Program-made: the position numbers and the translations under genes
Part shown: piece after piece, positions 3,725 through 60,515 of the stretch
Layout: every line of letters begins with the position of its first letter
How positions within the stretch are numbered: position 1 is the stretch's first letter
Assembly: GCA_043807135.1 (NCBI GenBank)
Contig: JAZDGF010000003.1
Span: 72,621-136,620 of the forward strand
Direction of reading: 5' to 3'
Origin: Candidatus Levyibacteriota bacterium
GTDB lineage: Bacteria; Patescibacteriota; Microgenomatia; Levybacterales; UBA12049
Length of the DNA stretch: 64,000 bases
Notes under the pieces: model-generated
The model's database searches: none
Seen by the model: only the letters and a program-made list of their open reading frames with translations
What the model was told of the DNA's origin: nothing

Positions 3725-3725
3725 A

Positions 3726-4373
3726 TTATTTCTCCTCCGGTTTATTAATCCACACTTTTATACCTATGTATCCTTTTTTAGTCAAAGATGGAACGCTTGC
3801 AAAAGTTATATGTTCTCTAATTGTTGATAAAGGAACTTTTCCTTTCTGCAATTTTTCAACTCTTCCAATTTCTGCACCACCAATTCTCCCAGATAGCACA
3901 ATTCTTACTCCTTTTGCTCCCGAATTCATAACTCTTTCTACCGTTTGTGCCATAACTCTTCTGTGTGGAAATCTTCTAATTAATTGGTCTGAAATGTTTT
4001 TTGCAACTAGATATGCATTCAAATTAGGCTCTTTAATAGGCTCTACTCTAATATCAATTTTTCTAACATTTCTTTCCTCTTTTTTAATTTTTAAGATTTT
4101 ATATAATAACTCTTTAAGGTCTTCTAACCCTGAACCTGCTCTTCCAATAACCATACCCGGTCTTGAAACATAAGCAATAATTTTAATGCTATTAATAGAT
4201 CTTTCAATTTCAACAGAAGCAATTCCTGCATTTTTAAGCTTCTCCATTAAGGTTTTTCTTAATTTATAATCCTCAAGCAGAGTTTCCTTGTACTGCCTGT
4301 CTTCATACCATCTACTACTCCAGTTATATATCGGTCCTAATCTTAATAAAATTGGATTAACTTTTTGTCCCAT
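3726..4373 (-). CDS. rpsC: 30S ribosomal protein S3
   Basis: The 215-aa protein begins MGQKVNPI and has S3 KH and C-terminal domains. Confidence 0.92.
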
Positions 4374-38650: not shown

Positions 38651-39736
38651 TTAGGTTGATAAAAATTGCTTTAAGTTTTCTTTGGTAACATGAACTTGAG
38701 TATTTTGTTGCACTTTTCCCTCAATAATAAGCCTTGCAGTTTTCCTGCAAATTCCCTCAATTGTTCTCTCTAAGCTTCTAATCCCAGAGTCAAAACCCAA
38801 TGGCCTTATAATGTTTGGCCATAAAGGATCATCGACTATTAGCTGATTATCAGAAAGTCCTGAGGCTTTTCTAATTTTTGGAAAAAGATAAATTTTAGCA
38901 ATAACAGTTTTTTCTTCGTCCGTATAAGACGGCATTTGAATTATCTCAAGCCTATCTAGCACTGCAGTTGAAATATTGGTTGTATTATTTGCAGTTGTAA
39001 CAAATAAAGAGTGAGATAAATCAAACGGATAATCAATATAATGATCTGTAAATGCCTTATTTTGCTCAGGATCTAAAAGTTCAACTAAAACTCCCATAAT
39101 ATCAGCTCTTGCCGCTTCGGTAACTCTATCAAGCTCATCAAGTAAAATTACCGAATTTTTACTTTGCGCGTGTACTATTTTTTTAACAATTGCGCCCGGT
39201 TCTGCTTCTGCAAGTGCACGAGACTGCCCACGCAGAATTTTTGCATCTCCCATTCCTCCGAAAGGAATTCTCTCAAATTTTCTTCCCAATGCTTCTGCAA
39301 TTGAATAAGCAAGTGTTGTTTTACCGGTTCCGACAAGACCAATCAAACAAAGAATTGGAGCACGAATTGTCATGTCTTGCTCTTGATTTGTTCTTAAATT
39401 AAGCATAATTGAGGAAAGATATTCAAGAATTCTGTTTTTAACACTTTCCAAACCGTAATGATTTTTGTCTAAAATTTGTTTTGCCGCATTAATATCTAAA
39501 AAATCCTTTGTTTCTTTTGCAAAGGGAAGATCACATATCCAATCAATATATTTTGCCGTACTTTCAAAATTAATAAAAGTTGCTCCTCCTGCTTTAAGCC
39601 CAGCTCTTAACATGGAAAGCATTCCATTAACTTTTTCTAAAAGTTCCGGAGGTAAATTTGCAGCTTTTACTTTTTCTTCAAGTTTTTTCACTTGAATATC
39701 AAGAGAGCCAGTTTGGTCCATATATTTATAATACAA
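38651..39736 (-). CDS. Lon-like AAA+ ATPase module only (no LON N-domain, no S16 peptidase domain)
   Basis: The 361-aa protein aligns to the Lon ATPase region: YIDWICDLPF, HYGLESVKNRILEYL, Walker A GLVGTGKTT, Walker B ILLDELD and TTANN. It ends exactly at the ATPase/protease boundary and is flanked by intact genes. Confidence 0.6.
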   Translation of the reverse strand: MYYKYMDQTGSLDIQVKKLEEKVKAANLPPELLEKVNGMLSMLRAGLKAGGATFINFESTAKYIDWICDLPFAKETKDFLDINAAKQILDKNHYGLESVKNRILEYLSSIMLNLRTNQEQDMTIRAPILCLIGLVGTGKTTLAYSIAEALGRKFERIPFGGMGDAKILRGQSRALAEAEPGAIVKKIVHAQSKNSVILLDELDRVTEAARADIMGVLVELLDPEQNKAFTDHYIDYPFDLSHSLFVTTANNTTNISTAVLDRLEIIQMPSYTDEEKTVIAKIYLFPKIRKASGLSDNQLIVDDPLWPNIIRPLGFDSGIRSLERTIEGICRKTARLIIEGKVQQNTQVHVTKENLKQFLST

Positions 39737-47284: not shown

Positions 47285-49666
47285 TTAATTAATATTTACA
47301 ATAAGTTCGTTTTCCTTACCTACTGAAAGAGAAACTTTATTTCCTCTGTTTATTTCTCCTGATAAAATCTTTTTTGCAATATTATCTTCTATGCCATTTT
47401 GAATAAAACGTTTTAATGGTCTTGCTCCAAATTGCTCGTCAAATCCTTCGCTTGAAACTTTTTTAACAATATTTTCATCAAAACTAAGATTAACGTCTTT
47501 TTCGGCAATTCTTCTTACCAAATCTTCTAAAAGCATTTTTGAAATTAACATAACCTGTTCTAATCCTAATGGTTTAAATACAATTGTGTCATCAAATCTG
47601 TTTATAAGTTCTGGTTTAAATATTCCGTTTATCTGCAAAAACTCAAATAATCTTTCTTTAAATGCCTTATCTAAAACAATTGATTTTTTAACTTCTTCAC
47701 GAATGAACTCAGAGGCTGCATTTGAAGTTGCAATAATAATTGTATTTGCAAAAGAGACAGTTTTTCCTTTATTGTCAGTTAATCTTCCATCATCTAAAAC
47801 CTGAAGAAATAAATCGAGAATTCTTGGATGTGCTTTTTCAAATTCATCAAGCAAAACCAGAGAATATGGATTATCATAAACTTTATCCGTTAATTCTCCT
47901 TTTTCAGATCCTTCTCCAGGAAGAGCACCAAGAAGTCTTTTACCACTATCTTCCTGTGAGTACTCACTCATATCAAGTCTTATCATCCGTTCACTTGATC
48001 CATAATAACTTTCTGCTAAGGCTTTTGCAGTTTCTGTTTTCCCAACTCCGGTAGGACCCATGAATAAAAAGGAAATTGGCCTTCTTTGATCTGTCAGACC
48101 TGATCTAAGCCTTCTCATTGCTTCTGAAATTGCCACAACTGCCTCATCTTGATCAATAACTCTTTTATGAATTTGTTCCTCCAGATGTAGAAGCAATTGC
48201 TTTTCTTTTTCTTTTGGAATGCCTATCGCACTTTTTATCTTTCTTTCTAAGAAAGAGATAATATCTTCTTCTTCGAGTATATTTTTACCGTTTGCTAATG
48301 CAAAAGTTGAAGCATCTTCTAAGAGAACAATTGCAGAGCCAGGAAGAACCAAATTTCTATTGTATTTATCTGCATAATTTAAAGAGGCAAGAAGTCCTCT
48401 GTAGCTTATTTGAATATTCTTGCTTTTTTCCACATACCAAGCATTTCTAAAAAGCATCATAAGAGCAGTATTTTTATCAGGCACATCAAGCCTTATTGTT
48501 TGTAAGGCACCCATTAGCTCATGCCTTTGTTCAATTTGCTTTTTAAAAGCAACTGGAGTTGTAGTTGTAATTAATCTGATTACTCCTTTTTCAATATATG
48601 GGATGAGGGCAGAAGATAAATCTAACTTGTATGAAGAATTACCTAATATATTTTCAAAATCCTTAACTAAAATAATGATATCCCCTGCATGAGCAAGTTC
48701 CACAACCATTAATCCAAGTCTTTCTTCAAGCTCTCCTTGACTTTCTGCTCCTGCTAAAAAAGAATCTACCATTAATTGAAAAATTCTTTGGTGATAAAGA
48801 TTTCCTTTTAGTTTTCCAGAATAACTATCAAGAGCTAACTTTTGAATTAAAGAATCCTTGCCACTTCCCGGCTCACCAATAATAAGCACGCTTTTTTTCT
48901 CCATAAGTCCTTCTAGGAGCATTTTATATTCTTCATCTCTTCCAATTATTTCAGGGCTTCTTCTTAAGATTTCTGAAGTTAAATCAACCATATATTTTTT
49001 AATTTCAATTGTCCATCCGTAAACCCATGGTTCACCAACTCCCTCTCCCCAAAACTCCACTCTATTGTGTTTTGTTTTTTCAAGCTTATCAAAGCTCATT
49101 CTTGCCCAAATTAAAATTCTTAATAAATCATCTTCCTTAAGTTTATTTTTAAAAAGTAGTTTTGTTTTATCCTCTGTGTTTAAAAAGTAAGCTGCAAAAA
49201 CATCAACTTCTGTTACAAAATTTCCGTTTATTTTTTTTACCAAGTACATTGCTGTTTGCATAAGCTTTTCTTTGAAAACACTTTCTTTTACTAAATCCTC
49301 TTTTTTAATATCCATTTTAGTTAACATAAATTTCCCAATTTTTTGTTTTTTTAGTTTTTCTAAGATTTCACTTTCATGATCAAAACAAAGAACAATTGCT
49401 TCAAGAGTAAAGGAATTAAAAATATCTTCCTTATTTTCCAAAACTTTTACACTTGGAAACTTTCGATAGATTTTTCTCTTAAAGAAAATTTCAATAATTA
49501 AGAATAGGCAAAGGAAAAATAACGGAAATTTAATGTTGACTAGTTTTTGAGGAATAATTAAGAACTGATTAACTACTGCAATAATTAGAAGAGCAAATAT
49601 TAAAAACCTTATTAATTCTATAATTCTTGAGGAGTAAAAATAATAAAGCTTTGCGTAATTTTTCAT
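47285..49666 (-). CDS. Membrane-anchored Hsp100/Clp-family ATPase with two AAA+ modules; D1 degenerate, D2 canonical
   Basis: The 793-aa protein has two N-terminal TM helices, Clp_N-like repeats, D1 (GEPGSGKDS; ILVKDFENIL) and D2 (GPTGVGKTE; LVLLDEFEKAH; ATSN). Confidence 0.75.
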   Translation of the reverse strand: MKNYAKLYYFYSSRIIELIRFLIFALLIIAVVNQFLIIPQKLVNIKFPLFFLCLFLIIEIFFKRKIYRKFPSVKVLENKEDIFNSFTLEAIVLCFDHESEILEKLKKQKIGKFMLTKMDIKKEDLVKESVFKEKLMQTAMYLVKKINGNFVTEVDVFAAYFLNTEDKTKLLFKNKLKEDDLLRILIWARMSFDKLEKTKHNRVEFWGEGVGEPWVYGWTIEIKKYMVDLTSEILRRSPEIIGRDEEYKMLLEGLMEKKSVLIIGEPGSGKDSLIQKLALDSYSGKLKGNLYHQRIFQLMVDSFLAGAESQGELEERLGLMVVELAHAGDIIILVKDFENILGNSSYKLDLSSALIPYIEKGVIRLITTTTPVAFKKQIEQRHELMGALQTIRLDVPDKNTALMMLFRNAWYVEKSKNIQISYRGLLASLNYADKYNRNLVLPGSAIVLLEDASTFALANGKNILEEEDIISFLERKIKSAIGIPKEKEKQLLLHLEEQIHKRVIDQDEAVVAISEAMRRLRSGLTDQRRPISFLFMGPTGVGKTETAKALAESYYGSSERMIRLDMSEYSQEDSGKRLLGALPGEGSEKGELTDKVYDNPYSLVLLDEFEKAHPRILDLFLQVLDDGRLTDNKGKTVSFANTIIIATSNAASEFIREEVKKSIVLDKAFKERLFEFLQINGIFKPELINRFDDTIVFKPLGLEQVMLISKMLLEDLVRRIAEKDVNLSFDENIVKKVSSEGFDEQFGARPLKRFIQNGIEDNIAKKILSGEINRGNKVSLSVGKENELIVNIN

Positions 49667-49667
49667 A

Positions 49668-49997
49668 TTAAATAAAAATTAAATAAAATGTCAGTATTGG
49701 AAAAGCAATAAATAAAAGAATAAAGGAAAATTCAATAAGTAAAACTATTGCCATTAAAAATAAATCCGCGAGAATTACAAAGGTTTTAATAAAAATTCCC
49801 ATACCTATTGAAAAACCAACAAGTCCCTCTCTGTACTCATTTTTCCAAGGCTTAAAGTACGTTTTTACTAAAAGTGGAAGAGAAATAATACCCATTATTG
49901 TCTTATTTAGAGATATAAAAAAGGAAATAAGTAAAACAGGAGCTTCTATAAACCAAAAGCGTAATAGAATTAATGGCAGACTTAAATAAAAGAGCAT
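49668..49997 (-). CDS. Small polytopic membrane protein, coupled to the downstream Clp-like gene by a 1-nt gap
   Basis: The 109-aa protein has three to four hydrophobic helices. Confidence 0.45.
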   Translation of the reverse strand: MLFYLSLPLILLRFWFIEAPVLLISFFISLNKTIMGIISLPLLVKTYFKPWKNEYREGLVGFSIGMGIFIKTFVILADLFLMAIVLLIEFSFILLFIAFPILTFYLIFI

Positions 49998-50037: not shown

Positions 50038-51981
50038 TTAATTTATAGGTGTACATTTGAGGCTACAAATTTGAATACCATCTTCTCTTGAAGTACATGC
50101 AGGGTCAAAAACACAATTAGCCGTTTTATAAATGGTTGTAGTTGTGGTAGAAGTTCCTAAACCTCCTTCTCCAGGCAAACTACAATCAGAAGGACAATTT
50201 ACATTTGTTTCTCCTAATTCACAGGTTCCATTTCCACAAGTATTATTTCCTCCAGGCAAACTACAATCAGAAGGACAATTTACATTTGTTTCTCCTAATT
50301 CACAGGTTCCATTTCCACAAGTATTATCTCCTCCTCCGGGGTTTGCTCCTGGCGGAATTATAAAGCTAAAAATAAGACCAAAATTACTAGTATTAATATT
50401 AATAGGGTTCGAAGGGAAAACAATTGTCCCTGCTTTTGCGGAAATATTATAGCTACCAATAGGAAGAGAAGTAAATGCGTATTCACCGTTACTATTAGTT
50501 GTGATAGTGCCACTGTATGGACCCGACAAAGTAATTGTTGCTCCTTGAATACCTTGTTCTCCTGGATCAAAAGTATTATTACTGTTTTGATCTATAAAAA
50601 CTGCACCCGAAATAAAGGGCCTATTTTGAAGAGAAGGATCGCCTCCTCCTGGATTAGTCCCTCCCGTTGTAGTTGTTGTTGTCTGTGTTGTTGTTCCTCC
50701 ACAATATTTTGGCAAAACATTAGTTCTAATCCAATATTTTTCTACAGAGTCAAATATTGGTTGTGTTGCACAACCTACTGCACTCATCATAGTGTTTGCA
50801 TTACCACTTGCTACTAGGTTTGGGTTAGCAGGTTTTGGACAAGTTAATGGAGAAGAAGCATAATTATTTATATTACTACAGCCCTTGTATGATCCTTGCC
50901 CGCCTGCTGTTTGCCAAAAACTTTCTCCGCTTGGATTATTCGTACAATTACTTTTTATTCCCCCTTGTATTTGTCCATAGCCTAAGTTTGAAGAGACATA
51001 GCGATCATACAAGAGGCCTATTGCATGACCTAAAAATTCATGCGCTGCAACTACTCTGGTGGTATTAGTAATATTTCCTCCATTATTTGGGAAAACTGCA
51101 ACGTTTCCCCCAATTCCGCTTGTTACTCCAAGCGCACCCCCTGAAATTACCATATCAACTAAAACTATTACTTTTGAAGCATCCGGATAAGTAGATTTTG
51201 CTATTTGCATAATTCTAGTGCTACCCACACAATTAAGGCTTGCTTTACACCCTAAAGATTCTGAATTGTCAACTACTCTAAAATCAAAAATGCTTTGTGT
51301 GTTGTACGGATCAACTGAAAGATAAATTTGCTTAAAAGCATCTACATCTTGATGAAACTTATTAAAATCCGTATACCCATCACTTACAAATGCAACAACT
51401 AAAGGACTACATCCTTGTGTCTGGGCATGGGCTTTGGGTAAATTAAAAAAATTTAGAGAATTTTTTTTTACAGGGAGCTCAATTTTCAAGATATTCTCAC
51501 TATTCTCTTTAATAAGAATCTTTGTTCCTTTGTCTAAGTATGGAACATAAATAACCGTATCTAATTTATCAGGAATTTCAGGCTGAGAACTTCCCGAAGC
51601 AGGAGCATTTATAGACATATCATATAAAGGATCTGTTGTAATGTTTATTTTTGTTCTATAAAGCACTTCATCACCTGAAGAATACATCACTAACTCGTAT
51701 GGCGAAAAATCTGCACTTCTATTATCTTGTGATATTTTTTTATCAATAAGGGTTACTTCTTTTAAAACAAGCTCTCTTTTGTCCGTATTAAAAGTAAGTA
51801 TTACCTCCCATGTCTTATAATTTGGTTTTTGCTCTGTAGTTACTGTCTTTTTAGACATAAATAAAGCGATTGGAATTGAGAATAAAACAATTAGAATAAT
51901 TACAACAAAAATGATTTTTTTTGGAATTGATATCTTTTGAAAAAATGAATTAATTTTACTTAAAAATCCCTCGTTATTCAT
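50038..51981 (-). CDS. Secreted multidomain protein with an N-terminal anchor, an HEFLGH (HExxxH) zincin-like segment, a Cna-B/SdrD-B-type fold and two Cys-rich 27-aa repeats
   Basis: The 647-aa protein contains AAHEFLGHAIGLLYDRY, then SGAVFIDQNSNNTFDPGEQGIQGATITLSGPYSGTITTNSNGEYAF, then two copies of NTCGNGTCELGETNVNCPSDCSLPG. Confidence 0.55.
   Translation of the reverse strand: MNNEGFLSKINSFFQKISIPKKIIFVVIILIVLFSIPIALFMSKKTVTTEQKPNYKTWEVILTFNTDKRELVLKEVTLIDKKISQDNRSADFSPYELVMYSSGDEVLYRTKINITTDPLYDMSINAPASGSSQPEIPDKLDTVIYVPYLDKGTKILIKENSENILKIELPVKKNSLNFFNLPKAHAQTQGCSPLVVAFVSDGYTDFNKFHQDVDAFKQIYLSVDPYNTQSIFDFRVVDNSESLGCKASLNCVGSTRIMQIAKSTYPDASKVIVLVDMVISGGALGVTSGIGGNVAVFPNNGGNITNTTRVVAAHEFLGHAIGLLYDRYVSSNLGYGQIQGGIKSNCTNNPSGESFWQTAGGQGSYKGCSNINNYASSPLTCPKPANPNLVASGNANTMMSAVGCATQPIFDSVEKYWIRTNVLPKYCGGTTTQTTTTTTGGTNPGGGDPSLQNRPFISGAVFIDQNSNNTFDPGEQGIQGATITLSGPYSGTITTNSNGEYAFTSLPIGSYNISAKAGTIVFPSNPININTSNFGLIFSFIIPPGANPGGGDNTCGNGTCELGETNVNCPSDCSLPGGNNTCGNGTCELGETNVNCPSDCSLPGEGGLGTSTTTTTIYKTANCVFDPACTSREDGIQICSLKCTPIN
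50171..50332. repeat. Near-perfect 81-bp tandem direct repeat, two copies, inside the secreted-protein gene
   Basis: ccaggcaaactacaatcagaaggacaatttacatttgtttctcctaattcacaggttccatttccacaagtattat occurs twice with period 81. It is also visible as a repeated peptide in the opposite-strand ORF 50132-50452. Confidence 0.85.
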
Positions 51982-54626
51982 ACGGAATTATTATTTAACG
52001 GATTGGCATTAACAGCCATTGTTTGCCCCTCTCCTATAGTAGGAGTTGGTGGAATTGAGTCAGGTGGAACCGGAGGCACCTGATTTTGATCCTGAATAGC
52101 ACCGTTTATCGGATTCTGAACTGACTGTCCTGGCTGTTGAGCTTGTTGTTTTTGCACCTGCTCTCCTGGTTTTTGAATCGCCTTTGTAAAAACAAATTCT
52201 TCTTTTTGAGAATTGTAATCAATAAGAATTTTATCTCCTTGAACAAAAGTTTTTTTGATAAGGAAAAGAGCTATTGGATTCTCGATTGCCGTTTGAATTA
52301 ATCTTCTTAAAGGCCTTGCACCATATACAGGATCGTAGCCTTCTTCAGCAAGCCTTGCCAAAGCTGCTTCGCTTGCTTCAAGATCAACTCCTTGCATAAG
52401 TAATAATTTCTTAGTTGCATTTATTCCAAGCCTTGCCACTTGAGTCATATTTTTCTGACTTAAGGGTTCGAAAACAATTACTCCGTCAAACCTATTTAAA
52501 AGCTCAGGCCTAAAGAATTTTCTAAGCTCCCCCATTAAAATTTTTGTTAATTCTGCAAATTTCTCTTTTGCTTCTTCCAGTATTTTTTCAGGCTGTAGGA
52601 TTTGTGCATTTTTATCTTCTTTCGTAACCTTATCTTGCAATTGCTGTTGAATTAAAGCGCTACCAATATTTGAAGTTGCAATTATAATGGTGTTTTTAAA
52701 GGAAATCGTATTTCCTTTATTGTCGGTTAATCTTCCATCTTCTAATAACTGAAGCAAAATATTAAATACATCGGGATGAGCTTTTTCTACTTCATCTAAA
52801 AGAACTATTGAGTATGGTTTCGCTCTTACGGCTTCTGTTAATTGACCACCTTCTTCATAGCCAACATATCCAGGAGGAGCTCCAATAAGTTTTGCTACTT
52901 CGTGTTTTTCCATATATTCACTCATATCAAGCCTGATCATTGACTGTTCTTTTCCAAAAAGAACTTGGGCAAGAGTTTTAGCAAGTTCTGTTTTTCCAAC
53001 ACCAGTAGGACCAAGGAAAATAAAGGAAGCAATTGGTCTATTAACACTTGAGAGTCCGATTCTTCCTCTTCTTACAGCTTCCGCAACTAAACTTACTGCG
53101 TTTTCTTGATTAATCAGTCTTTTATGAATTGTTTCTTCTAGACGAAGCAGTTTTTCACTTTCGTTTTCGGTTAATTTAGTAATTGGTATTCCTGTCCAGT
53201 TGCTTACTACTTTTTCAATATCTTCTCTTTTTATTTCATTTCCTTGCCTTTTCCCGGCATTAAGCTCAAGTCTTACTTGTGCTGATGCTTCATCTAAAAG
53301 ATCTACTGCCTTATCAGGAAGATAACGCTCTCCAATATATCTTTTAGAAAGTTTTACAGATGCCTCTATTGCCTCAGGGGTAGCTTTTACTTTATGGAAT
53401 TCTTCATATCTTGGGACCAAAATCTTAATCATTTCAATTGCTGCTTTTTCGTCCGGTTCTTCAACTAAAACTGGCTGAAATCTTCTTTCAAAAGCTTTAT
53501 CTTTTTCAAAATACCTTCTGTATTCAACTGTAGTTGTGGTTCCAATTATTTGCAGTTGCCCACGTGCAAGGAATGGTTTTATGATATTTGATGCATCTAA
53601 AGCTCCTTCTGTATCTCCTGCTCCAATTATGCTGTGAATTTCATCAATAAATAAAATTACATTTCCTGCTGCTTGAGTTTCTTTAATTACTCCCCTTAAT
53701 CTTTCTTCAAATTCTCCTCTATGCGATGCACCTGCAACCAAAGATGAAAGATCAAGTTGAATAATTTTTTTTGCTTCAAGATCCTTGGGCGCTTTTCCAC
53801 CAACAATATCTTGAGCAAGACCTTCAACAATTGCTGTTTTACCAACTCCTGCCTCTCCGATAATAATAGGGTTATTTTTTGTTCTCCTTAAAAGAATGTG
53901 AGTAAGTCTTTCTACTTCTCTATCTCTTCCGGTTATAGGATCAAGATCTCCATTTTTAGCTTGCTCTGTAAGATTAATTCCGAATTGTTCAAGCGTTGAT
54001 TTTTTACCATATACAAAAGTAGAAGACTTAGATAATTGTTTTTCTATTTTTTCTTTATCAAGCCCTTGTGATTTCAAATAATCAGATACTGCCATGTTTT
54101 GAGAAAATAAAGAGACAAGTAAATCTTCCGGGCTTATAAATTCAACGCCTCTTGATTTAATAGTTGAATATGCCTGCTCAAAAACATGCTTGGAATTTTC
54201 AGAAAGCATAGGCTGTCCTTCAAAAGTTCCTGCTTGTTCTTTTGCCTGCAACTCCTTTGAAAGCTTGGCAACATCTACTGAAAATTTTGAAAGTAGGGCA
54301 AAAACTTCAGAGTCAAATAAAAGACCTAATAAAATTTGCTCAGGCTCTATTAATCCTTGTTTAATTCTTTTTGTTTCCTGCTGTGCTTGATTTAAAATTT
54401 GAGTGGTTCTAGAATCTAGATGAGAAAGAATTGATAAATCCTGTCTTTGTCCCGGCTGCATAGAAGAACTAACTATACCGTCCTGCTGAGGATTTGAAGG
54501 AGAAGAAGGAATGGGCGGTTGTTGCATGGGTGACTGCCCTAACGGTGGCATAACCGGCTGCTGAGATTGATCTTGCTTAATTTCGTTTTCTTCTTTTTTC
54601 TTTTGACTAAATAAATTTCCTAACAT
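51978..54626 (-). CDS. clpC: ClpC/ClpB-type Hsp100 ATPase with Gln/Pro-rich N- and C-terminal extensions
   Basis: The 882-aa protein has Clp_N repeats, D1 (GEAGVGKTA; ILFIDEIH), D2 (GPTGVGKTE; IVLLDEVEKAH) and no obvious ClpP-binding IGF loop. Confidence 0.85.
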   Translation of the reverse strand: MLGNLFSQKKKEENEIKQDQSQQPVMPPLGQSPMQQPPIPSSPSNPQQDGIVSSSMQPGQRQDLSILSHLDSRTTQILNQAQQETKRIKQGLIEPEQILLGLLFDSEVFALLSKFSVDVAKLSKELQAKEQAGTFEGQPMLSENSKHVFEQAYSTIKSRGVEFISPEDLLVSLFSQNMAVSDYLKSQGLDKEKIEKQLSKSSTFVYGKKSTLEQFGINLTEQAKNGDLDPITGRDREVERLTHILLRRTKNNPIIIGEAGVGKTAIVEGLAQDIVGGKAPKDLEAKKIIQLDLSSLVAGASHRGEFEERLRGVIKETQAAGNVILFIDEIHSIIGAGDTEGALDASNIIKPFLARGQLQIIGTTTTVEYRRYFEKDKAFERRFQPVLVEEPDEKAAIEMIKILVPRYEEFHKVKATPEAIEASVKLSKRYIGERYLPDKAVDLLDEASAQVRLELNAGKRQGNEIKREDIEKVVSNWTGIPITKLTENESEKLLRLEETIHKRLINQENAVSLVAEAVRRGRIGLSSVNRPIASFIFLGPTGVGKTELAKTLAQVLFGKEQSMIRLDMSEYMEKHEVAKLIGAPPGYVGYEEGGQLTEAVRAKPYSIVLLDEVEKAHPDVFNILLQLLEDGRLTDNKGNTISFKNTIIIATSNIGSALIQQQLQDKVTKEDKNAQILQPEKILEEAKEKFAELTKILMGELRKFFRPELLNRFDGVIVFEPLSQKNMTQVARLGINATKKLLLMQGVDLEASEAALARLAEEGYDPVYGARPLRRLIQTAIENPIALFLIKKTFVQGDKILIDYNSQKEEFVFTKAIQKPGEQVQKQQAQQPGQSVQNPINGAIQDQNQVPPVPPDSIPPTPTIGEGQTMAVNANPLNNNSV

Positions 54627-54631
54627 ATTTT

Positions 54632-55990
54632 TTATTGTGAACAGGTAAATGGATTATCTTTATTTGTTTTTACCATTCCGCCCCATTCAACTGCCGTAAA
54701 TCCTTTTCTTTGAGGCGTTACAATTACCGGTTCTTTTATATTAACTTTTTTATCTAATGCTTCAAAATATAATCTTACTCTAATAAACACATCAGGATTT
54801 GGATTAAAGAATATCGGCTCAATTTGATCAATATCATTTTTTGTCATAACTCCTACAAAATAGTATGGAGAAATAGGTAAAACTTTTTCCCAATATTCTT
54901 TAAATTCTTTACTTTCTTTTTCATTTAATCCCAATTTTGGCAAAAGTTTATCAAATAAAGACCCTAATTCATCTCTTTTGACTACATATCCTTTTTGAGG
55001 TTTTTTTACCAAATTATCAGGAATCTTTGATTCATAGTATAAATACGGATAAGTATTGTTTTCTAATGTAATTAGTCCTTTTTTATCTGCAAGGACTGTC
55101 CAACCTTCTTCTGGATAAGAAGGAATGGTTAAAGTTAATATTCCTTTTGTCTTTACTTTCACATTTACTTCCTCTTCTTTTTCAGGATACAGATAAATTG
55201 CTGGTTTACAGGCAGGAGTCCACCAAGAATACGATCTTGTTGTTACAAAAGTTACTTTCTTAAGCTGAAGAGATTTTTCTCCCTGAGCAGGAGGGGGAAT
55301 TGGCGTATCTACCCAAAGATACTCATAGATATTATCTCCATTTTTTAAATAAATAGTTCCCAGATGATAAAATAATGAATAATTAGTTTGTCCTACCTTT
55401 AATTTTCCAATTTCTTTTACTTCGCTAAGATTATTAAGAGAGCTAAAAACTGTAACATTCCCATTATGAACATAGCCAGGGGCAACCGATGGCTCTGTTA
55501 AGCCAATTATGTCTGTTTTATTAAATGAACTTGGAGGAAATGTATTCTCATCTCCTTCAACAATAGTAAGTTTTCCTCCTGTTGATTTGCAGTTTTTAAT
55601 ATAATCGGGGATTGCTGCTCCATCTTTTATATAAAGATCAAAAACATATGGAGATTCTAGAGTTGTATTTTTCAATTGGAAAACAATTATCGGATCTACT
55701 TTTTGACCAAAATAATTACTTGTCAGTGCGTAAAGATTATTTCCAAGCGAATTTAATTCTTTAAATTTATACTCTTCAATAATTTCTGCATCTTTTTTTA
55801 TTAAGTTATACTGAACTCCGTTATATGACACTGTTTGGGAAGTACTTGGTGGATCAAAATCAACACAAGAAGCTGTTGGAGAAACAGGTGTATAATTTTG
55901 ATTTTTATTTGGACTTATTGAAAACAAACCCGCCAAGGCTACCGCAGCAATTACTACAACCCCTAAAGTAAATATCACAAGCTTGTTCAT
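54632..55990 (-). CDS. Secreted/anchored hypothetical protein
   Basis: The 452-aa protein has an N-terminal signal anchor and no recognisable motif. Confidence 0.5.
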   Translation of the reverse strand: MNKLVIFTLGVVVIAAVALAGLFSISPNKNQNYTPVSPTASCVDFDPPSTSQTVSYNGVQYNLIKKDAEIIEEYKFKELNSLGNNLYALTSNYFGQKVDPIIVFQLKNTTLESPYVFDLYIKDGAAIPDYIKNCKSTGGKLTIVEGDENTFPPSSFNKTDIIGLTEPSVAPGYVHNGNVTVFSSLNNLSEVKEIGKLKVGQTNYSLFYHLGTIYLKNGDNIYEYLWVDTPIPPPAQGEKSLQLKKVTFVTTRSYSWWTPACKPAIYLYPEKEEEVNVKVKTKGILTLTIPSYPEEGWTVLADKKGLITLENNTYPYLYYESKIPDNLVKKPQKGYVVKRDELGSLFDKLLPKLGLNEKESKEFKEYWEKVLPISPYYFVGVMTKNDIDQIEPIFFNPNPDVFIRVRLYFEALDKKVNIKEPVIVTPQRKGFTAVEWGGMVKTNKDNPFTCSQ

Positions 55991-56032
55991 AAATTTATTG
56001 TAACACTATTTTTAAAATCAAGAAAAATCTTT

Positions 56033-58309
56033 TTATTTAATCTTTTCATCTATCTTTGCTTCCTCTGCCATTTCTTTTGGTTTTTCTTCTTTCTTAGTCC
56101 TTGCAGAAAGCATTGTGTCCTCTTCTTCTTGTTTACTTTTAAGTTTTCCTACTACAGACTTTGCTGCTTCAAGTTTTGCCTTAAGATAAGCAACTACTTC
56201 AGTCTGAGAAAATCCTCCAATCAGAAGGAAAGGAAGAATATTTCCAACTGCTTCCATTCCCTTATCAACATTTTGTGTATCTTGTGAAGAAAGAAGATTA
56301 ACTGTATCTGTAATCTTTCCAATATCTGCGTTTATCCATTCTGCTCTCTCCTGTTGTTTTGGAGGCTCAAGTGTTTCATAATTTTCCTCCCACATCTTTC
56401 TAACTGCTTCATAATCATCAAGGCTTACTTGCTGCACTCTGTTTGTAACAGGGAATGGCCCTGAAGAAACTTTAGATATATCCGTAACTCCTGCCTCCTC
56501 AAGCACCATTGCAGCAATTGAATTCCCTTTTTCTTTTGCTTCTTTAAGTCTTTCCTTAAGTGCTTCATCTGCTCCTTCTTTATCCATTGCAGAAAGAATA
56601 GAGACTGCAAGAGGATTACCATTTTTTTGCGCTTTTATTAATTGATCTTTTATTGTTGTTAATTTTTGTTTTTCTGCAATGTTTGCAGTATTTGGACTTG
56701 CAATCTTTTGAAGTGCCGTATTAAGACGTGCTGTTTCTTTTTGAGACTGAACAACCATTTCCGGCTTATTAATAGTGCTTGCAGCAGTAAGAATAGAACT
56801 TGCAACTCTATTTCCTTTTTGACCTTCCTGAACAAGTTTATCTTTTATCGATGTATATTTCTCTCTTTCTATTGTTGAGCTTAATTTCTTTGGATTAGCA
56901 ATTCTTTCTAATGATTCGTGATATTTTGCAAGTTCTGTGTGCTTACTCATGCTTGAACTTAAAGAAGCAGTTTCAAATTTTGCAATATCTCTCATTGTTG
57001 GAATAGATAAATTAGTAAGTTTCGTAATCTCTAACTGCATTGATCTTATGTTTGAGATGTCCATTGGAATACTTTGCGTCTTTATGTTTGGTATTGAAAT
57101 CTTAGCAGCAAAAGGAATAGTTTTTGCCATACCTGTTGGCTGATGAGATGAAAGAGGCGAAGGAGGCGGAGCCTGGGGAGAACTTTTTGATTTTGACATA
57201 AACGAAGAACCTGATTCTACCAATTGTTTTACAAAAGAATTCTCACTAAAGGATAACGTTTGGATATAATCAAGAAAAATCTGCAAAAGTAAAAAAGGAA
57301 GAATTATAATAACCCAAAGCATAAGAAGTGCAACAACGTAAAGTGCAAAAGACTCCTTATTATTTACACTGTTACTTAAAGACAAAACCTGTCCTGGGCC
57401 TCCTAAGAGAATATTAATTGCTGTTGGATAAACAACTGTATTTGAAAAGGCGAATTGTAAAGGAATACCAGTTCGCCAAACATAAACAAGTCCTGATAAA
57501 AAGATAGCAAAAATAGGAGCATACAAAAGCCAGCGGAAAAATTCTCCAATCCAAATTTTTCCAGTATTTCTAATTGGGGAATATAGCAAAAGAAGCGGAA
57601 ATACGGGAGAAATGATTATGAAAAACCACAGGATAATTTTTCTTATTAAAAGAATTCCTGCCATTACATAATAAGTTGCTGCAGTAAGTTTTATTAAAAG
57701 AAGGGAAATAAAAGCAGATTCATCAAAAGGAGCACCAAATCTTCTATAACCTGTAAAATCCTGATAATTAAATCCTATGTTTAAAAGGTTTTTTTGGGAA
57801 ATAAAACCGGTTCCTTCAGGATTTTTTAAGAAAAAGCCCTGAATTACATCTATAATCTGATACAAAAACTGGATAAGCGCAAAAGAAAATGTAACTAAAA
57901 GAATGATGATAATAAATCTTGGAATAAAACGCATAACCGTAATGCTTCTTCCGCGGGTTACGATCATAATAAATGCTGTTATTAAAACTGCTAAAGCAAA
58001 GAAAGCGTAAACAATATTTCTAATTTGTGACCAGAAATTAGCAAGCGGATTCTGAGTACCTGCAGTAACAAATGACCAGCTATAATTTTGAAGTGTCCAA
58101 TCTAAAAATTGTCCTGATCTTGCTCCCATTTTTCCAACAAAAGTAACATCTGAATCATTAACCCAGGTTCCATCGCCAGGTTGACCTGTTGCAGATGTAG
58201 GAGAAGTTGTTGAAGGACTACTCGGATCAATTTGAGCAATAGCTGGAGCAACAAATAACAAACTAACTATTGTTATTAAAAGAAATAAAAAGGGCAGGAA
58301 TTTTTTCAT
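56033..58309 (-). CDS. VirB6/TrbL-like polytopic membrane protein with a long repeat-containing hydrophilic C-terminal domain
   Basis: The 758-aa protein has a signal peptide, an exposed segment of about 100 aa, 6 or more TM helices, and a roughly 400-aa C-terminus with three repeats (KGNRVASSILTAAS / NGNPLAVSILSAMD / KGNSIAAMVLEEAG). Confidence 0.4.
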   Translation of the reverse strand: MKKFLPFLFLLITIVSLLFVAPAIAQIDPSSPSTTSPTSATGQPGDGTWVNDSDVTFVGKMGARSGQFLDWTLQNYSWSFVTAGTQNPLANFWSQIRNIVYAFFALAVLITAFIMIVTRGRSITVMRFIPRFIIIILLVTFSFALIQFLYQIIDVIQGFFLKNPEGTGFISQKNLLNIGFNYQDFTGYRRFGAPFDESAFISLLLIKLTAATYYVMAGILLIRKIILWFFIIISPVFPLLLLYSPIRNTGKIWIGEFFRWLLYAPIFAIFLSGLVYVWRTGIPLQFAFSNTVVYPTAINILLGGPGQVLSLSNSVNNKESFALYVVALLMLWVIIILPFLLLQIFLDYIQTLSFSENSFVKQLVESGSSFMSKSKSSPQAPPPSPLSSHQPTGMAKTIPFAAKISIPNIKTQSIPMDISNIRSMQLEITKLTNLSIPTMRDIAKFETASLSSSMSKHTELAKYHESLERIANPKKLSSTIEREKYTSIKDKLVQEGQKGNRVASSILTAASTINKPEMVVQSQKETARLNTALQKIASPNTANIAEKQKLTTIKDQLIKAQKNGNPLAVSILSAMDKEGADEALKERLKEAKEKGNSIAAMVLEEAGVTDISKVSSGPFPVTNRVQQVSLDDYEAVRKMWEENYETLEPPKQQERAEWINADIGKITDTVNLLSSQDTQNVDKGMEAVGNILPFLLIGGFSQTEVVAYLKAKLEAAKSVVGKLKSKQEEEDTMLSARTKKEEKPKEMAEEAKIDEKIK

Positions 58310-58321
58310 AATTTCTTGTCT

Positions 58322-58606
58322 TTATTTAAAACCAGGTATATGCAATATGTCAATAGCAATTATTTGAACAAAAACATAGCCAAAAATTGCTAAAAGCAAA
58401 CCTATAATAGCATAGAAAATATAGCTTTTACCCGTATTTAGTTTATCAGGATTTCCTTGAGAAATAAGAATCATGTATCCTCCGTAGATAATAAATAAAA
58501 CGGAAACTCCGCCAATTAAACCTAAACCAATAGCATAAAATTTTGTAACAAAACCTATCGGATCATTAGGAATACATCCCAATTCCGTAGGTGTACAATC
58601 AGGCAT
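58322..58606 (-). CDS. T4SS-pilin-like (TrbC/VirB2-like) small membrane protein
   Basis: The 94-aa protein has an N-terminal Cys pair (CTPTELGC), two hydrophobic helices separated by a GNPDKLNTGKS loop, and sits directly upstream of the VirB6-like gene. Confidence 0.4.
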   Translation of the reverse strand: MPDCTPTELGCIPNDPIGFVTKFYAIGLGLIGGVSVLFIIYGGYMILISQGNPDKLNTGKSYIFYAIIGLLLAIFGYVFVQIIAIDILHIPGFK

Positions 58607-59618: not shown

Positions 59619-60515
59619 TTAAAACCAGCTTTTCTTCTTGCTTCCTTCTCCTTCAAACTCTCTAAGAAGTTCCTTTTGTTGAGAGGTTAAATTTTTGGGA
59701 ATAACTACTTTTATTTTTACGTAATGATTTCCTTTTCCCGAACCACGCAAATGAGCAATTCCTTTTTGGGCTAGTCTAAAAACTGTTTCTGGTTGAGTAC
59801 CGGAAGGAATTCTTAATTTTACTTTTCCATCTACAGTTTCTACATCGATATTTCCTCCAAGCGTAGCTATTGCAAAAGATATTTCTTCTTCAGAAACAAT
59901 ATCTTGTCCTTGCCTATGAAAATGTGAATCAGGTTTTACCTTTACTAAAACATCGTAATCATTAAAACGAATTCTGGATCCATCATCTACGCCTGCGGGG
60001 ATTTTAATTTTTTGACTTTTATTTTCGATCCTAACCTGTTTTTCAACACCTTTAACTGCTTCCATAAAATTAATTGTTATGGAATAAATAGCTCTTCTTT
60101 GTCTTTGCGCGCCAAACGGGGAACCACCACCAAAAAACTCCCTAAAAATTTCAAAAGGGTCGGAAAAGCCACCAAAATCAAAATCATTGGCATTACTGTT
60201 TGAATAAGTATAGGTAAATGGCCCATATTGTCCACCTTGCTGCCCTGAAAAACCACCAAATCCTCCAAACGGTCCTTGACCGGTTGGTCCTCCTTGCTCA
60301 AAAGCAGCACTGCCAAACTGATCATAAGTTTGTCTTTTTTGCGGATCTGATAATGCCTCATATGCTTTACTTACCTCTTTAAATTTTAGCTCTGCTTCTT
60401 TTGTTCTATTTTTATCAGGATGATACTGAACTGCAAGTTTTCGATATGCTTTTTTAATTTCTTCTTGAGAAGCTGATTTATTTACTCCAAGAATTTTATA
60501 AAAATCTTTCTCCAT
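59619..60515 (-). CDS. dnaJ: DnaJ-class co-chaperone (J domain plus G/F region, no zinc-finger; type II/CbpA-like)
   Basis: The 298-aa protein has a J domain with HPDKN, a G/F-rich linker and C-terminal substrate-binding domains. Confidence 0.9.

What the first reader, a model, noticed from the sequence alone, without database searches (positions are those of the whole stretch)
47285..49997. Membrane-anchored Clp/Hsp100 paralogue whose first AAA+ ring has lost its catalytic residues
The ATPase at 47285-49666 (793 aa) has two N-terminal TM helices. D1 has GKT changed to GKD in Walker A and DE changed to DF in Walker B (ILVKDFENIL), and the arginine-finger region ALERRFQ is replaced by ELMGALQ. 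D2 is fully canonical. It is translationally coupled by a 1-nt gap to the upstream small TM protein at 49668-49997. A membrane-tethered unfoldase with a non-hydrolytic D1 ring is unusual for ClpB/ClpC proteins.
Basis: seen in the sequence. Interest (0 to 1): 0.55.

Follow-up and report, generated by a model that had tools for sequence, protein, structure and literature searches.

The report
Membrane-anchored Clp ATPase plus small partner
This gene and the small membrane-protein gene in front of it form a two-gene unit found across several groups of ultra-small (CPR/Patescibacteria) bacteria. It encodes a membrane-tethered relative of the ClpB/ClpC protein-unfolding motors that has lost the parts normally used to grip and thread proteins, so it probably works in a different and still unknown way.

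Summary
ORF 47285-49666(-) encodes a 793-aa Clp/Hsp100 ATPase from a Levybacteria genome. It has an N-in two-helix membrane hairpin, a divergent Clp_N domain, a catalytically dead D1 and a catalytically intact D2. In D1, Walker A is GKD, Walker B D-E aligns to K-D, and the RR fingers are G-A.

So D2 is not "fully canonical", and "unfoldase" is doubtful.

This is not a lone odd paralogue. About 300 close relatives share these features. More distant 2-TM subfamilies (Berkelbacteria and other Patescibacteria) also lack the D2 tyrosine and the D1 arginine fingers, whereas every TM-less hit is canonical (108 vs 8).

The 109-aa upstream gene is an obligate partner. It was adjacent (gap -4 to +3 nt) or fused in 35/35 loci found through the ATPase and 66/66 testable loci found through the small protein. 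It was also adjacent in 7 distant loci with unrelated neighbourhoods.

Best reading: a two-subunit membrane AAA+ machine driven by D2 only. It most likely remodels rather than threads, as torsin and Bcs1 do. The substrate is unknown. I found no literature on it.

The parts
47285..49666 (-). TM-Clp gene, 793 aa: membrane hairpin, Clp_N-like domain, pseudo-ATPase D1 and active D2 with D2-small domain
   Evidence: ORF. Pfam AAA_2 1.8e-45 and ClpB_D2-small 1e-20. Collinear match to the ClpA model TIGR02639 over residues 102-781. PDB hits to ClpB/ClpC/ClpA. Identical to the NCBI MAG protein P0001 from Levyibacteriota.
49556..49627 (-). TM helix 1 (residues 14-37, RIIELIRFLIFALLIIAVVNQFLI), preceded by the cytoplasmic N-tail MKNYAKLYYFY
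   Evidence: KD 19-residue window 2.61. AF2 helix H14-37 with pLDDT above 90. Coordinates checked. This helix is lost in all fused forms.
49469..49543 (-). TM helix 2 (residues 42-66), with conserved intramembrane E59 and the FF+FKI motif, followed by the basic stretch KRKIYRK on the cytoplasmic side
   Evidence: AF2 helix H42-66. E59, F61 and K65 are at least 90% conserved. This helix is kept in the fused forms.
49094..49423 (-). Divergent Clp_N-fold N-domain (residues 82-191)
48992..49054 (-). Family-specific Trp/Gly-rich linker FWGEGVGEPWVYGWTIEIKKY between the N-domain and D1
   Evidence: Within-family identity 0.58 against 0.18 to the canonical Clp. G209, W218 and E221 are invariant. pLDDT is low in the monomer models. 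Its function is unexplained.
48257..48970 (-). D1 AAA+ module (residues 233-470). It is conserved but catalytically degenerate.
   Evidence: Within-family identity 0.52. Motif states.
48851..48877 (-). D1 Walker A GEPGSGKDS: Lys kept, Thr replaced by Asp
   Evidence: In the family, K 109 / R 11; the Thr position is E58/T26/K10/N10/D7.
48731..48754 (-). D1 pore-1 loop AGAESQGE (canonical AGAKYRGE): Tyr replaced by Ser
   Evidence: 0/120 homologues have an aromatic residue here.
48650..48676 (-). D1 Walker B region IILVKDFEN. The canonical D-E aligns to K335-D336.
   Evidence: In the family, the D position is P95/S10/K6 and the E position is E40/D39/N35.
48500..48520 (-). D1 Arg-finger region ELMGALQ (canonical ALERRFQ): RR replaced by GA
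   Evidence: At the two finger positions R occurs in 1/120 and 0/120 homologues.
47576..48166 (-). D2 large AAA+ domain (residues 501-697), catalytically intact
   Evidence: Within-family identity 0.70. Walker A K/T, Walker B D/E and sensor-1 N are 120/120; Arg finger R is 119/120.
48032..48058 (-). D2 Walker A GPTGVGKTE
47894..47929 (-). D2 pore-1 loop GALPGEGSEKGE (canonical GAPPGYVGYEEGG). The GYVG Tyr is replaced by Glu and the loop is 2 residues shorter, acidic and Gly-rich.
   Evidence: HMMER alignment to 1qvr. Family variants are all without an aromatic residue at the Tyr position and vary in length. The distant subfamilies show the same loss.
47825..47860 (-). D2 Walker B LVLLDEFEKAHP
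47288..47575 (-). D2-small domain (residues 698-793), including the sensor-2 motif GARPLKR
   Evidence: Pfam ClpB_D2-small 1e-20. Sensor-2 R is 117/120.
49668..49997 (-). Obligate small membrane partner, 109 aa (P0121), with its stop 1 nt before the TM-Clp ATG
   Evidence: ORF; junction. It has 283 homologues of about 109 aa and no Pfam or NCBIfam match. It is adjacent or fused in 35/35 and 66/66 loci. It is fused to the ATPase in about 15 of 120 homologues.
49830..49865 (-). Near-invariant basic/aromatic motif KTYFKPWKNEYR of the partner (residues 45-56), inferred to be cytoplasmic
   Evidence: T46, F48, P50, W51, K52, E54, Y55 and R56 are invariant in 59 sequences. Distant relatives keep TLF.PW[KR][RK]D. 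The location is an inference from the positive-inside rule and from the fusion topology.
49683..49766 (-). C-terminal membrane anchor of the partner (residues 78-105), with conserved D78, E89 and P100
   Evidence: KD windows 2.3-2.9. It is part of the long AF2 helix H56-105 in the fused homologue. Conservation.

Best explanation
The two genes encode the two subunits of a membrane-embedded Hsp100-type AAA+ machine specific to CPR/Patescibacteria.

The large subunit:
- It is held in the membrane by an N-in/C-in helical hairpin, so its Clp_N-like domain and the D1 face point toward the membrane and D2 points into the cytoplasm.
- D1 keeps its fold and its P-loop lysine. It has lost the trans-acting arginine fingers and, in most members, the Walker A Thr and Walker B Asp. 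It is therefore a structural pseudo-ATPase ring that possibly binds nucleotide but does not hydrolyse it.
- D2 keeps every catalytic residue and is the only motor.

The small subunit:
- It has a highly conserved, basic and aromatic N-terminal part (inferred cytoplasmic) and a C-terminal membrane anchor.
- It acts as an obligate cofactor or adaptor that docks on the membrane-proximal face of the ATPase. In some lineages it is fused in place of hairpin helix 1.

Mechanism:
- Neither ring has the aromatic-hydrophobic pore-1 loop that Hsp100 proteins need to grip and thread polypeptide.
- ATP hydrolysis in D2 is therefore most likely converted into conformational work on the partner or on a membrane-associated client, in the manner of torsin-LAP1 or Bcs1. 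Processive unfolding through the pore is less likely.

What is shown and what is inferred:
- Shown: the architecture, the motif states, their conservation, the gene coupling and the fusions.
- Inferred: the topology of the partner, physical contact between the subunits, ring formation, the non-threading mode and the cellular role, which I take to be membrane or envelope protein homeostasis.
For: Architecture:
- Pfam, NCBIfam and PDB matches.
- The AF2 full-length model of a fused homologue matches ClpC, ClpB and ClpA with TM-score 0.80-0.83 normalised to the target.
- Two TM helices.

D1 dead, D2 alive:
- Per-site counts in 120 homologues.
- D1 remains under constraint, with within-family identity 0.52.

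Pore loops:
- 0/120 homologues have an aromatic residue at either Tyr position, and the D2 loop varies in length.
- Hsp104 loop-3 requires the Tyr and hydrophobicity (PMC5741831).

Clade-wide coupling of traits:
- Among 117 full-length hits to a distant member, 108 have TM helices and lack both GYVG and RR. Eight have no TM helix and have both. One is probably truncated.

Obligate partner:
- It is adjacent or fused in 35/35 loci found through the ATPase.
- It is adjacent in 66/66 testable loci found through the small protein.
- Gaps of -4, 0, 1 or 3 nt predominate.
- Fusions occur with at least two linker arrangements, always small protein plus hairpin helix 2.
- The pair persists in 7 distant loci with unrelated neighbours.

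Precedents for membrane-associated AAA+ proteins without pore loops:
- Torsins (PMC7175109).
- Bcs1 (PMC7994207).
Against: - There is no experimental data of any kind, and the substrate is unknown.
- D2 keeps its own Arg finger and sensor 2. It is therefore a self-sufficient hydrolase and, unlike torsin, does not depend on a cofactor for hydrolysis.
- Loss of the aromatic residue does not strictly exclude translocation of an unusual client, for example a basic one, by the acidic loop.
- The chaperone-rich neighbourhood (hrcA-grpE-dnaK-dnaJ, a canonical Clp and a Lon-like gene) could simply be inherited synteny, and it is absent in distant lineages.
- The topology of the small protein is ambiguous. 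AF2 draws one 50-residue helix, and a hairpin would place the conserved loop outside the cell.
- I could not inspect inter-domain contacts in the AF2 model.
Confidence: 0.5

Rival explanations
1. It is a conventional membrane-tethered threading unfoldase or dislocase. It would extract and unfold membrane proteins into the cytoplasm in the manner of FtsH or Msp1, with D2 as the threading motor.
For: - The orientation fits: the N-terminus is in the membrane, so the D1 entry face points toward it.
- D2 is fully competent for hydrolysis.
- Chaperone and protease genes lie nearby in Microgenomates.
- The fold is closest to the threading enzymes ClpC, ClpB and ClpA.
Against: - The pore-1 aromatic and hydrophobic residues are missing from both rings in all 120 close and 108 distant members.
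- The D2 loop varies in length and sequence, which suggests relaxed constraint rather than re-specialisation.
- There is no ClpP-docking tripeptide: 115/120 lack any hG[FL] in the relevant region.
- There is no M-domain for Hsp70 coupling.
Confidence: 0.25
2. It is an ATP-driven transport or export device. The small proteins and hairpins would form a membrane conduit, and the ATPase would move a folded protein or a non-protein or basic polymer across or into the membrane, as Bcs1 and PTEX-HSP101 do.
For: - Charged residues are conserved inside the membrane segments: partner K71, D78 and E89, and ATPase E59.
- The D2 loop is acidic.
- Bcs1 is a precedent for a TM-anchored AAA protein without a pore loop that moves folded cargo (PMC7994207).
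- A membrane-anchored HExxH protein is encoded just upstream in at least 10 loci.
Against: - No cargo gene is consistently linked, and the neighbourhoods differ among lineages.
- In PTEX the D2 face, not the N-terminal face, contacts the pore. This point rests on my own knowledge.
- The partner probably has only one TM helix, so a conduit is speculative.
Confidence: 0.12
3. It is a decaying paralogue or an annotation artefact: a mis-called start creates false TM helices and the degenerate motifs reflect a pseudogene.
For: D1 has lost its catalytic residues.
Against: - The intact 793-aa ORF has full-length homologues at 44-82% identity.
- The N-terminal residues are at least 90% conserved.
- The start codon is coupled to the partner's stop.
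- D2 catalytic residues are 117-120/120 conserved.
- D1 is 52% identical within the family.
Confidence: 0.02
4. It is a mobile anti-phage or conflict system, with an ATPase sensor and a small membrane effector.
For: - The layout of a small TM protein plus an AAA+ ATPase resembles some defence systems.
- PADLOC gives generic D2 matches to DolB and PDC-M37B.
Against: - The PADLOC hits cover only the generic ClpB-D2 module, and the small protein has no hit.
- The pair sits at a fixed housekeeping position (dnaK/clp ... nusA-infB-rpsO-pnp) in 30 or more Microgenomates loci, which indicates vertical inheritance.
Confidence: 0.03

Closest known systems
Class-I Clp/Hsp100 ATPases (ClpB, ClpC, ClpA)
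   Same: - The domain order is Clp_N, D1, D2, D2-small.
- The best sequence matches (E 1e-106 to ClpB 1qvr) and the best structure matches (TM-score 0.8) are to these proteins.
- D2 Walker A/B, sensor 1/2 and the Arg finger are identical in type.
   Different: - It has an N-terminal two-TM anchor and an obligate small membrane partner.
- D1 lacks the Arg fingers and usually the Walker A Thr and Walker B Asp.
- Both pore-1 tyrosines are absent.
- It has no M-domain (ClpB/ClpC) and no ClpP-binding loop (ClpA/ClpC).
- Scores fall far below the NCBIfam cut-offs: ClpB 425 vs 1232 and ClpA 375 vs 993.
Torsin ATPases with the membrane cofactors LAP1/LULL1
   Same: - Both have a Clp/Hsp100-D2-related AAA+ module associated with a membrane.
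- Both lack conserved aromatic pore loops.
- Both depend on a dedicated membrane-protein partner.
- The mechanism is presumed to be non-threading (PMC7175109).
   Different: - Torsins have a single ring, are eukaryotic and lie in the ER lumen. They lack their own Arg finger, which the cofactor supplies.
- Here D2 has its own Arg finger, there is an extra pseudo-ATPase ring, and the partner is a tiny non-AAA protein.
- The similarity is functional only. No specific sequence relationship was tested.
Bcs1 (mitochondrial inner-membrane AAA translocase of folded Rieske protein)
   Same: Both are anchored by an N-terminal TM segment with the ATPase on the cytoplasmic or matrix side. [quoted passage not shown] A concerted, non-threading mechanism is proposed for Bcs1 (PMC7994207).
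   Different: Bcs1 belongs to a different AAA clade. It has a single ring, forms heptamers, lacks sensor 2, and has no small partner.
FtsH / Msp1 (membrane-anchored AAA threading machines)
   Same: Both have an N-terminal membrane anchor, and the ring's entry face points toward the membrane.
   Different: FtsH and Msp1 keep aromatic pore loops, and FtsH carries an M41 protease domain. The protein here has neither.
ClpS-ClpA, MecA-ClpC and similar small adaptors that bind Clp N-domains
   Same: A cofactor of about 100 aa is encoded next to the ATPase that carries a Clp_N domain. Adjacency of clpS and clpA is from my own knowledge.
   Different: The partner here is membrane-anchored, has no detectable similarity to ClpS or MecA (no Pfam or NCBIfam hit), and is sometimes fused N-terminally to the ATPase.
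Double-ring AAA+ proteins with one non-hydrolysing ring (NSF D2, PEX1/PEX6 D1)
   Same: One ring serves as a structural or assembly ring and the other is the motor. This comparison rests on my own knowledge.
   Different: Those proteins belong to the classic AAA clade, are soluble, and their active ring keeps aromatic pore loops.

Membership tests
Clp/Hsp100 class I (double-ring AAA+) | Two tandem AAA+ modules followed by the ClpB_D2-small domain | tested here: met
   Pfam AAA_2 and ClpB_D2-small. D1 aligns to ClpB and ClpA D1. Foldseek TM-score 0.80-0.83 to ClpC, ClpB and ClpA.
Clp/Hsp100 class I (double-ring AAA+) | Clp_N N-terminal domain | tested here: met
Clp/Hsp100 class I (double-ring AAA+) | Catalytic D1: Walker A GK[TS], Walker B hhhhDE and trans Arg fingers | tested here: not met
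   GKD; K-D at the D-E position; G-A at the R-R position. The family-wide counts agree.
Clp/Hsp100 class I (double-ring AAA+) | Aromatic pore-1 loops: D1 KYR and D2 GYVG | tested here: not met
   ESQ and GEGS in the window protein. 0/120 close and 0/108 distant TM-bearing relatives have the D2 G-aromatic-h-G motif; the D1 Tyr position was counted only in the 120 close homologues (0/120).
Clp/Hsp100 class I (double-ring AAA+) | Catalytic D2: Walker A/B, sensor 1, Arg finger and sensor 2 | tested here: met
   117-120 of 120 conserved.
ClpB (disaggregase) | Long coiled-coil M-domain inserted in D1-small; NCBIfam TIGR03346 cut-off | tested here: not met
   There is no insertion. The stretch from D1-small to the D2 Walker A is 138 aa, with no coiled-coil insertion in the pairwise alignments. 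TIGR03346 scores 425 against a cut-off of 1232.
ClpA / ClpC / ClpE (ClpP partners) | ClpP-docking hG[FL] tripeptide loop in D2 | tested here: not met
   It is absent in the window protein and in 115/120 relatives. TIGR02639 scores 375 against a cut-off of 993.
FtsH | N-terminal TM helices, a single AAA module and an M41 zinc protease domain | tested here: not met
   TM helices are present, but there is no Peptidase_M41 hit and the AAA modules are of the Clp type.
Torsin | Single D2-like AAA+ module that lacks its own Arg finger, activated by LAP1/LULL1 | tested here: not met
   The protein has two modules and the D2 Arg finger is present in 119/120. Only the loss of the pore loop and the membrane partnership are shared.
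CPR TM-Clp plus small-partner module (defined here) | Two-TM N-terminal hairpin on a double-ring Clp-type ATPase | tested here: met
   window protein; 108 distant members.
CPR TM-Clp plus small-partner module (defined here) | Small membrane protein with the motifs W[WF].x(2,3)[AG]P ... FS.P.L..T.F.PW[KR] encoded directly upstream or fused | tested here: met
   Window junction TAA-T-ATG. 35/35, 66/66 and 7/7 loci.
CPR TM-Clp plus small-partner module (defined here) | Physical complex of the two proteins, ring stoichiometry and ATPase activity of D2 only | not testable with these tools
   This is inferred from the gene fusions and the motif states only.

The most novel reading that the evidence does not exclude
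The pair is a new functional class of Hsp100-derived machine that arose early in CPR/Patescibacteria. It would be a membrane-embedded, D2-powered, non-threading AAA+ remodeller or translocase that works only through its tail-anchored cofactor. It would carry out an envelope- or membrane-related task, such as insertion, extraction or gating of a membrane component, that other bacteria handle with different machinery.
Probability: 0.35. Interest if true: 0.85.

Novelty: new variant of a known kind. Interest (0 to 1): 0.68.

Why it matters
- Hsp100/Clp proteins are textbook threading motors. A large, conserved bacterial clade that is membrane-anchored, runs on one ring, has lost the pore-loop tyrosines and always needs a tiny membrane partner would be a natural counter-example. 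It would also be a bacterial parallel to the poorly understood torsin and Bcs1 mechanisms.
- The pair is one of the few multi-lineage, CPR-restricted gene pairs with a recognisable motor domain. That makes it a tractable entry point into the unknown membrane biology of these uncultivated episymbionts.
- There is a practical annotation point. Databases call these proteins "ATP-dependent Clp protease ATP-binding subunit ClpC", which the motif evidence contradicts. The small partner is often not called at all, or is called on the wrong strand.

Tried and rejected
- **CIRCE operator.** I searched the window for the HrcA operator TTAGCACTC-N9-GAGTGCTAA with up to 3 mismatches and found none. There is therefore no evidence for heat-shock control.
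- **Small partner in family libraries.** Pfam, NCBIfam and PADLOC give no hits for the small partner. Pfam also gives nothing for its distant relatives.
- **PADLOC for the ATPase.** Only generic D2 matches appear, so I rejected a defence role.
- **The 647-aa upstream protein.** The PDB sequence search found nothing useful. The Pfam Peptidase_M64 hit is weak (E 0.007, below threshold) and remains only a lead.
- **Genome scan.** I repeated the scan with the closer alignment A3. Because the scan uses exact peptide patterns, the 29 loci it found under-sample the family.
- **AFDB fold search.** This library was unavailable.
- **Literature.** Five searches for a membrane-anchored Clp/Hsp100 in CPR found nothing. 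The CPR protein-family paper PMC6744442 does not mention Clp.
- **Offset catalytic residues.** I considered whether an offset alignment could rescue the D1 catalytic residues. R382 and R392 flank the finger site in the window protein; the family variants at 381-391 show R382 is variable, R392 was not assessed, and neither aligns with the finger positions. An acidic residue persists at the Glu position in 79/120, but the Walker B Asp is Pro in 95/120.
- **Hetero-oligomer with the neighbouring canonical Clp.** I rejected this as a general feature. That gene is upstream in only about 15 of 35 loci and is absent from the distant loci.


Full report
**1. What is at the coordinates**

The window is AT-rich (about 33% GC). 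ORF 47285-49666(-) encodes 793 aa, and ORF 49668-49997(-) encodes 109 aa. The junction reads TAA-T-ATG, a 1-nt gap. The large protein is identical to an NCBI MAG protein from Candidatus Levyibacteriota, in the Microgenomates group of Patescibacteria.

Pfam finds AAA_2 (1.8e-45) and ClpB_D2-small (1e-20) in the C-terminal half, and only weak P-loop matches in the first module. NCBIfam aligns residues 102-781 collinearly with the ClpA model. All scores are far below the curated cut-offs: ClpB 425 vs 1232 and ClpA 375 vs 993. The best PDB sequence match is T. thermophilus ClpB 1qvr, at E 1.6e-106. A canonical 882-aa Clp lies two genes upstream at 51978-54626 and is 36% identical.

**2. Checking the motifs**

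The alignments to 1qvr and to the neighbouring Clp agree with each other.

| Site | Canonical | Window protein |
|---|---|---|
| D1 Walker A | GEPGVGKTA | GEPGSGKDS |
| D1 Arg fingers | ALERRFQ | ELMGALQ |
| D1 pore-1 loop | AGAKYRGE | AGAESQGE |
| D2 pore-1 loop | GAPPGYVGYEEGG | GALPGEGSEKGE (Glu at the Tyr position) |

D2 Walker A (GPTGVGKTE), Walker B (LLDEFE), sensor 1 (TSN), Arg finger (NRFD) and sensor 2 (GARP) are intact.

In Hsp104 these tyrosines are "invariable and mutationally sensitive", and the hydrophobicity of the D2 loop is essential for function (PMC5741831). There is no M-domain and no ClpP-docking tripeptide.

**3. The N-terminus is real**

Basic residues flank the hairpin on the N-tail and after TM2 (KRKIYRK). 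I therefore infer an N-in/C-in topology with the ATPase in the cytoplasm. Residues M1, Y11, R20, E59, F61 and K65 are at least 90% conserved, so the start codon is not mis-called.

**4. The features are family-wide**

The search returned 120 full-length homologues, about 780-825 aa and 44-82% identical, all from Patescibacteria or Levybacteria where a source names them. The per-site counts are as follows.

| Position | Residues in 120 homologues |
|---|---|
| D1 P-loop Lys | K109 / R11 |
| D1 Walker A Thr position | E58 / T26 / K10 / N10 / D7 |
| D1 Walker B Asp position | P95 / S10 / K6 |
| D1 Walker B Glu position | E40 / D39 / N35 |
| D1 Arg-finger positions | R once (1/120 and 0/120) |
| D1 pore Tyr position | N/T/S/D, no aromatic residue |
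| D2 catalytic residues | 117-120 of 120 conserved |
| D2 pore Tyr position | no aromatic residue; loop length varies |

Within-family identity is 0.70 for D2-large and 0.52 for D1-large. It is 0.58 for a family-specific Trp/Gly-rich linker, FWGEG..GWTIETKKY. D1 is therefore a conserved pseudo-ATPase and not a decaying domain.

**5. The small protein is an obligate partner**

- It has 283 homologues of about 109 aa and no Pfam or NCBIfam family.
- Its N-terminal two-thirds are extremely conserved. W15, P20, S29, N31, T46, F48, P50, W51, K52, E54, Y55, R56, K71 and others are invariant in 59 sequences.
- About 15 of the 120 ATPase homologues (about 820 aa) carry this protein fused at their N-terminus.
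- All fusion variants examined (P0119, L007, L009, L011 and the 871-aa L008) consist of the small protein followed by hairpin helix 2. Helix 1 is lost in every case.
- A genome scan seeded with a D1 alignment, and so independent of the small gene, gave 29 species-representative loci from Levybacteria, Gottesmanbacteria and Microgenomates.
- Together with 5 loci from look-ups and the window itself, 35/35 loci have the small gene directly upstream or fused. Gaps to the ATG are mostly -4, 0, 1 or 3 nt.
- A metagenome scan seeded with the small protein gave 80 loci. Of these, 62 have the TM-Clp immediately downstream, 4 have its truncated N-terminus, and 14 end too early to test. That makes 66/66 testable loci.

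**6. The module extends beyond Microgenomates**

A profile search of 1.84 billion representative proteins found only 63 clusters of the small protein. All are 43-152 aa long. Some are weak hits that keep the motifs WW[YF]..[AG]P and FS.P.L..TLF.PW[KR][RK]D. I looked up three of these, and each lies 1, -4 or 3 nt upstream of a 2-TM Clp-type ATPase in an unrelated neighbourhood.

Searching with one such ATPase (850 aa) found the following groups:

- a second subfamily of about 90 clusters, from Berkelbacteria and other Patescibacteria;
- further subfamilies, called C and D here, and P0399;
- then canonical Clps from Clostridia, Streptomyces and others.

In the joint alignment, all 108 TM-bearing full-length proteins lack both the D2 GYVG motif and the D1 RR fingers. 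All 8 TM-less proteins have both. One further protein is probably truncated.

The D1 Walker A and B states vary between subfamilies, and a few keep GKT or DE. The universal traits are therefore the anchor, the loss of the D1 arginine fingers, the loss of the D2 aromatic loop, and the partner. Subfamilies C and D, P0399 and a named Berkelbacteria genome all have a small-protein homologue directly upstream. One of these is an ORF the gene callers missed.

**7. Genomic context**

In Microgenomates the pair sits in a fixed housekeeping stretch:

hrcA-grpE-dnaK-dnaJ ... [canonical Clp, often a ~650-aa exported protein] - small gene - TM-Clp - nusA-infB-DHH-rpsO-pnp - Lon-like ATPase.

This is compatible with a proteostasis role. 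It may equally be inherited synteny, because the neighbours differ in distant lineages. No CIRCE element is present in the window.

**8. Topology and model of the partner**

AF2 modelling of the fused homologue P0119 (pLDDT 86, pTM 0.71) gives these elements:

- helix 3-33;
- a loop at residues 42-55 that carries the KTYF+PWKNEYR motif;
- one continuous helix 56-105;
- a short loop;
- the hairpin-2 helix at 115-128;
- the Clp body.

The Clp body matches ClpC, ClpB and ClpA with TM-score 0.80-0.83 normalised to the target.

The ATPase must be cytoplasmic, and exactly one TM helix separates it from the partner's C-terminus in the fusions. The partner's C-terminus must therefore be outside the cell.

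In distant homologues the N-terminal 70-80 residues are not hydrophobic and are rich in Lys and Arg. Only the C-terminal 40-45 residues are hydrophobic.

The favoured inference is a tail-anchored cofactor: a conserved cytoplasmic N-domain, one TM helix, and an N-in/C-out orientation. In the fusions its TM helix would replace hairpin helix 1. An alternative three-TM topology would put the conserved loop outside the cell. It violates the positive-inside rule but is not excluded.

**9. Mechanism**

Shown:
- a membrane anchor;
- a Clp_N fold;
- a D1 that cannot hydrolyse in the normal way, having no trans arginines and usually no Mg-coordinating Thr or Asp;
- a D2 with a complete catalytic set;
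- pore-1 loops without aromatic or hydrophobic grip;
- an obligate, sometimes fused partner.

Inferred:
- D1 is a structural ring, possibly nucleotide-binding, and D2 is the only motor.
- The partner docks on the membrane-proximal face, at the N-domain, the linker or the D1 entrance.
- ATP-driven motion acts on the partner or on a membrane client without processive threading.

Two membrane-associated AAA+ proteins offer precedents:
- Torsins lack aromatic pore loops and depend on membrane cofactors (PMC7175109).
- Bcs1 is TM-anchored, lacks the substrate-contacting pore loop, and is proposed to work by a concerted non-threading mechanism (PMC7994207).

Unlike torsin, D2 here keeps its own Arg finger, so the partner is not needed to complete the active site.

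The main rival is classical threading of membrane proteins in the manner of FtsH or Msp1. The orientation and the fold favour it. The universal loss and the variability of the pore loops count against it.

**10. Novelty**

Databases annotate the large protein as "ATP-dependent Clp protease ATP-binding subunit (ClpC)" and the small one as hypothetical. Five full-text searches and the CPR protein-family paper gave no description of a membrane-anchored, pore-loop-less Hsp100 or of its partner.

It is a member of the Clp/Hsp100 superfamily by fold and by D2 sequence. It fails the defining tests for ClpB, ClpA/ClpC, FtsH and torsin. I classify it as a new variant of a known kind, with a substantial chance that its mode of action is new for this family.

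Noticed in passing
window 50038-51981 (-): A 647-aa protein with an N-terminal membrane anchor, an HExxH motif (AAHEFLGHAIG) with a sub-threshold Peptidase_M64 hit (E 0.007), an SdrD_B-like domain and two repeats of GNNTCGNGTCELGETNVNCPSDCSLPG. Its start overlaps the stop of the canonical Clp by 4 nt. Homologues lie between the canonical Clp and the small-gene/TM-Clp pair in at least 10 other loci, and the L001 homologue also has HExxH (HELEGH).
   Followed up: partly
window 51978-54626 (-): The "canonical" 882-aa Clp is itself atypical. It has no M-domain and no ClpP-docking tripeptide. Its D1 pore loop is SHR instead of KYR. It has long Gln/Pro-rich N- and C-terminal tails. It scores below both the ClpB and ClpA NCBIfam cut-offs (874 vs 1232; 715 vs 993).
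   Followed up: partly
window 38651-39736 (-): A 361-aa protein has only AAA and Lon_lid domains, with no Lon N-domain and no protease domain. It lies downstream of pnp. The same position holds a Lon-like gene in related loci L003 and L004.
   Followed up: no
window 63005-63736 to 59619-60515 (-): An hrcA-grpE-dnaK-dnaJ operon is present, but no CIRCE-like inverted repeat (up to 3 mismatches) exists anywhere in the 64-kb window.
   Followed up: partly
L001 6668-6997; L003 6668-7000; L120 about 3630-4010: The small partner gene is frequently missed by public gene calls. It is uncalled in L001 and L120, and in L003 a gene is called on the opposite strand. Its true distribution is therefore under-counted in protein databases.
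   Followed up: yes
window 23792-26224 (+): An 810-aa protein has a weak Baseplate_J-like match (E 1.2e-6). It lies in the only stretch of the window (about 22-30 kb) where genes run on the + strand and the GC skew changes sign.
   Followed up: no
window 58322-58606 (-) and 54632-58309 (-): A 94-aa protein has a sub-threshold T4SS_pilin match. It lies next to two large ORFs (758 and 452 aa) that have no Pfam family, between dnaJ and the canonical Clp. This is the variable insert region of the otherwise syntenic locus.
   Followed up: no
window 48992-49054 (-): The Trp/Gly-rich linker FWGEGVGEPWVYGWTIEIKKY is one of the most conserved, family-specific elements of the TM-Clp, yet it is modelled with low confidence in the monomer. 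It may form the contact site with the partner or with the membrane.
   Followed up: partly
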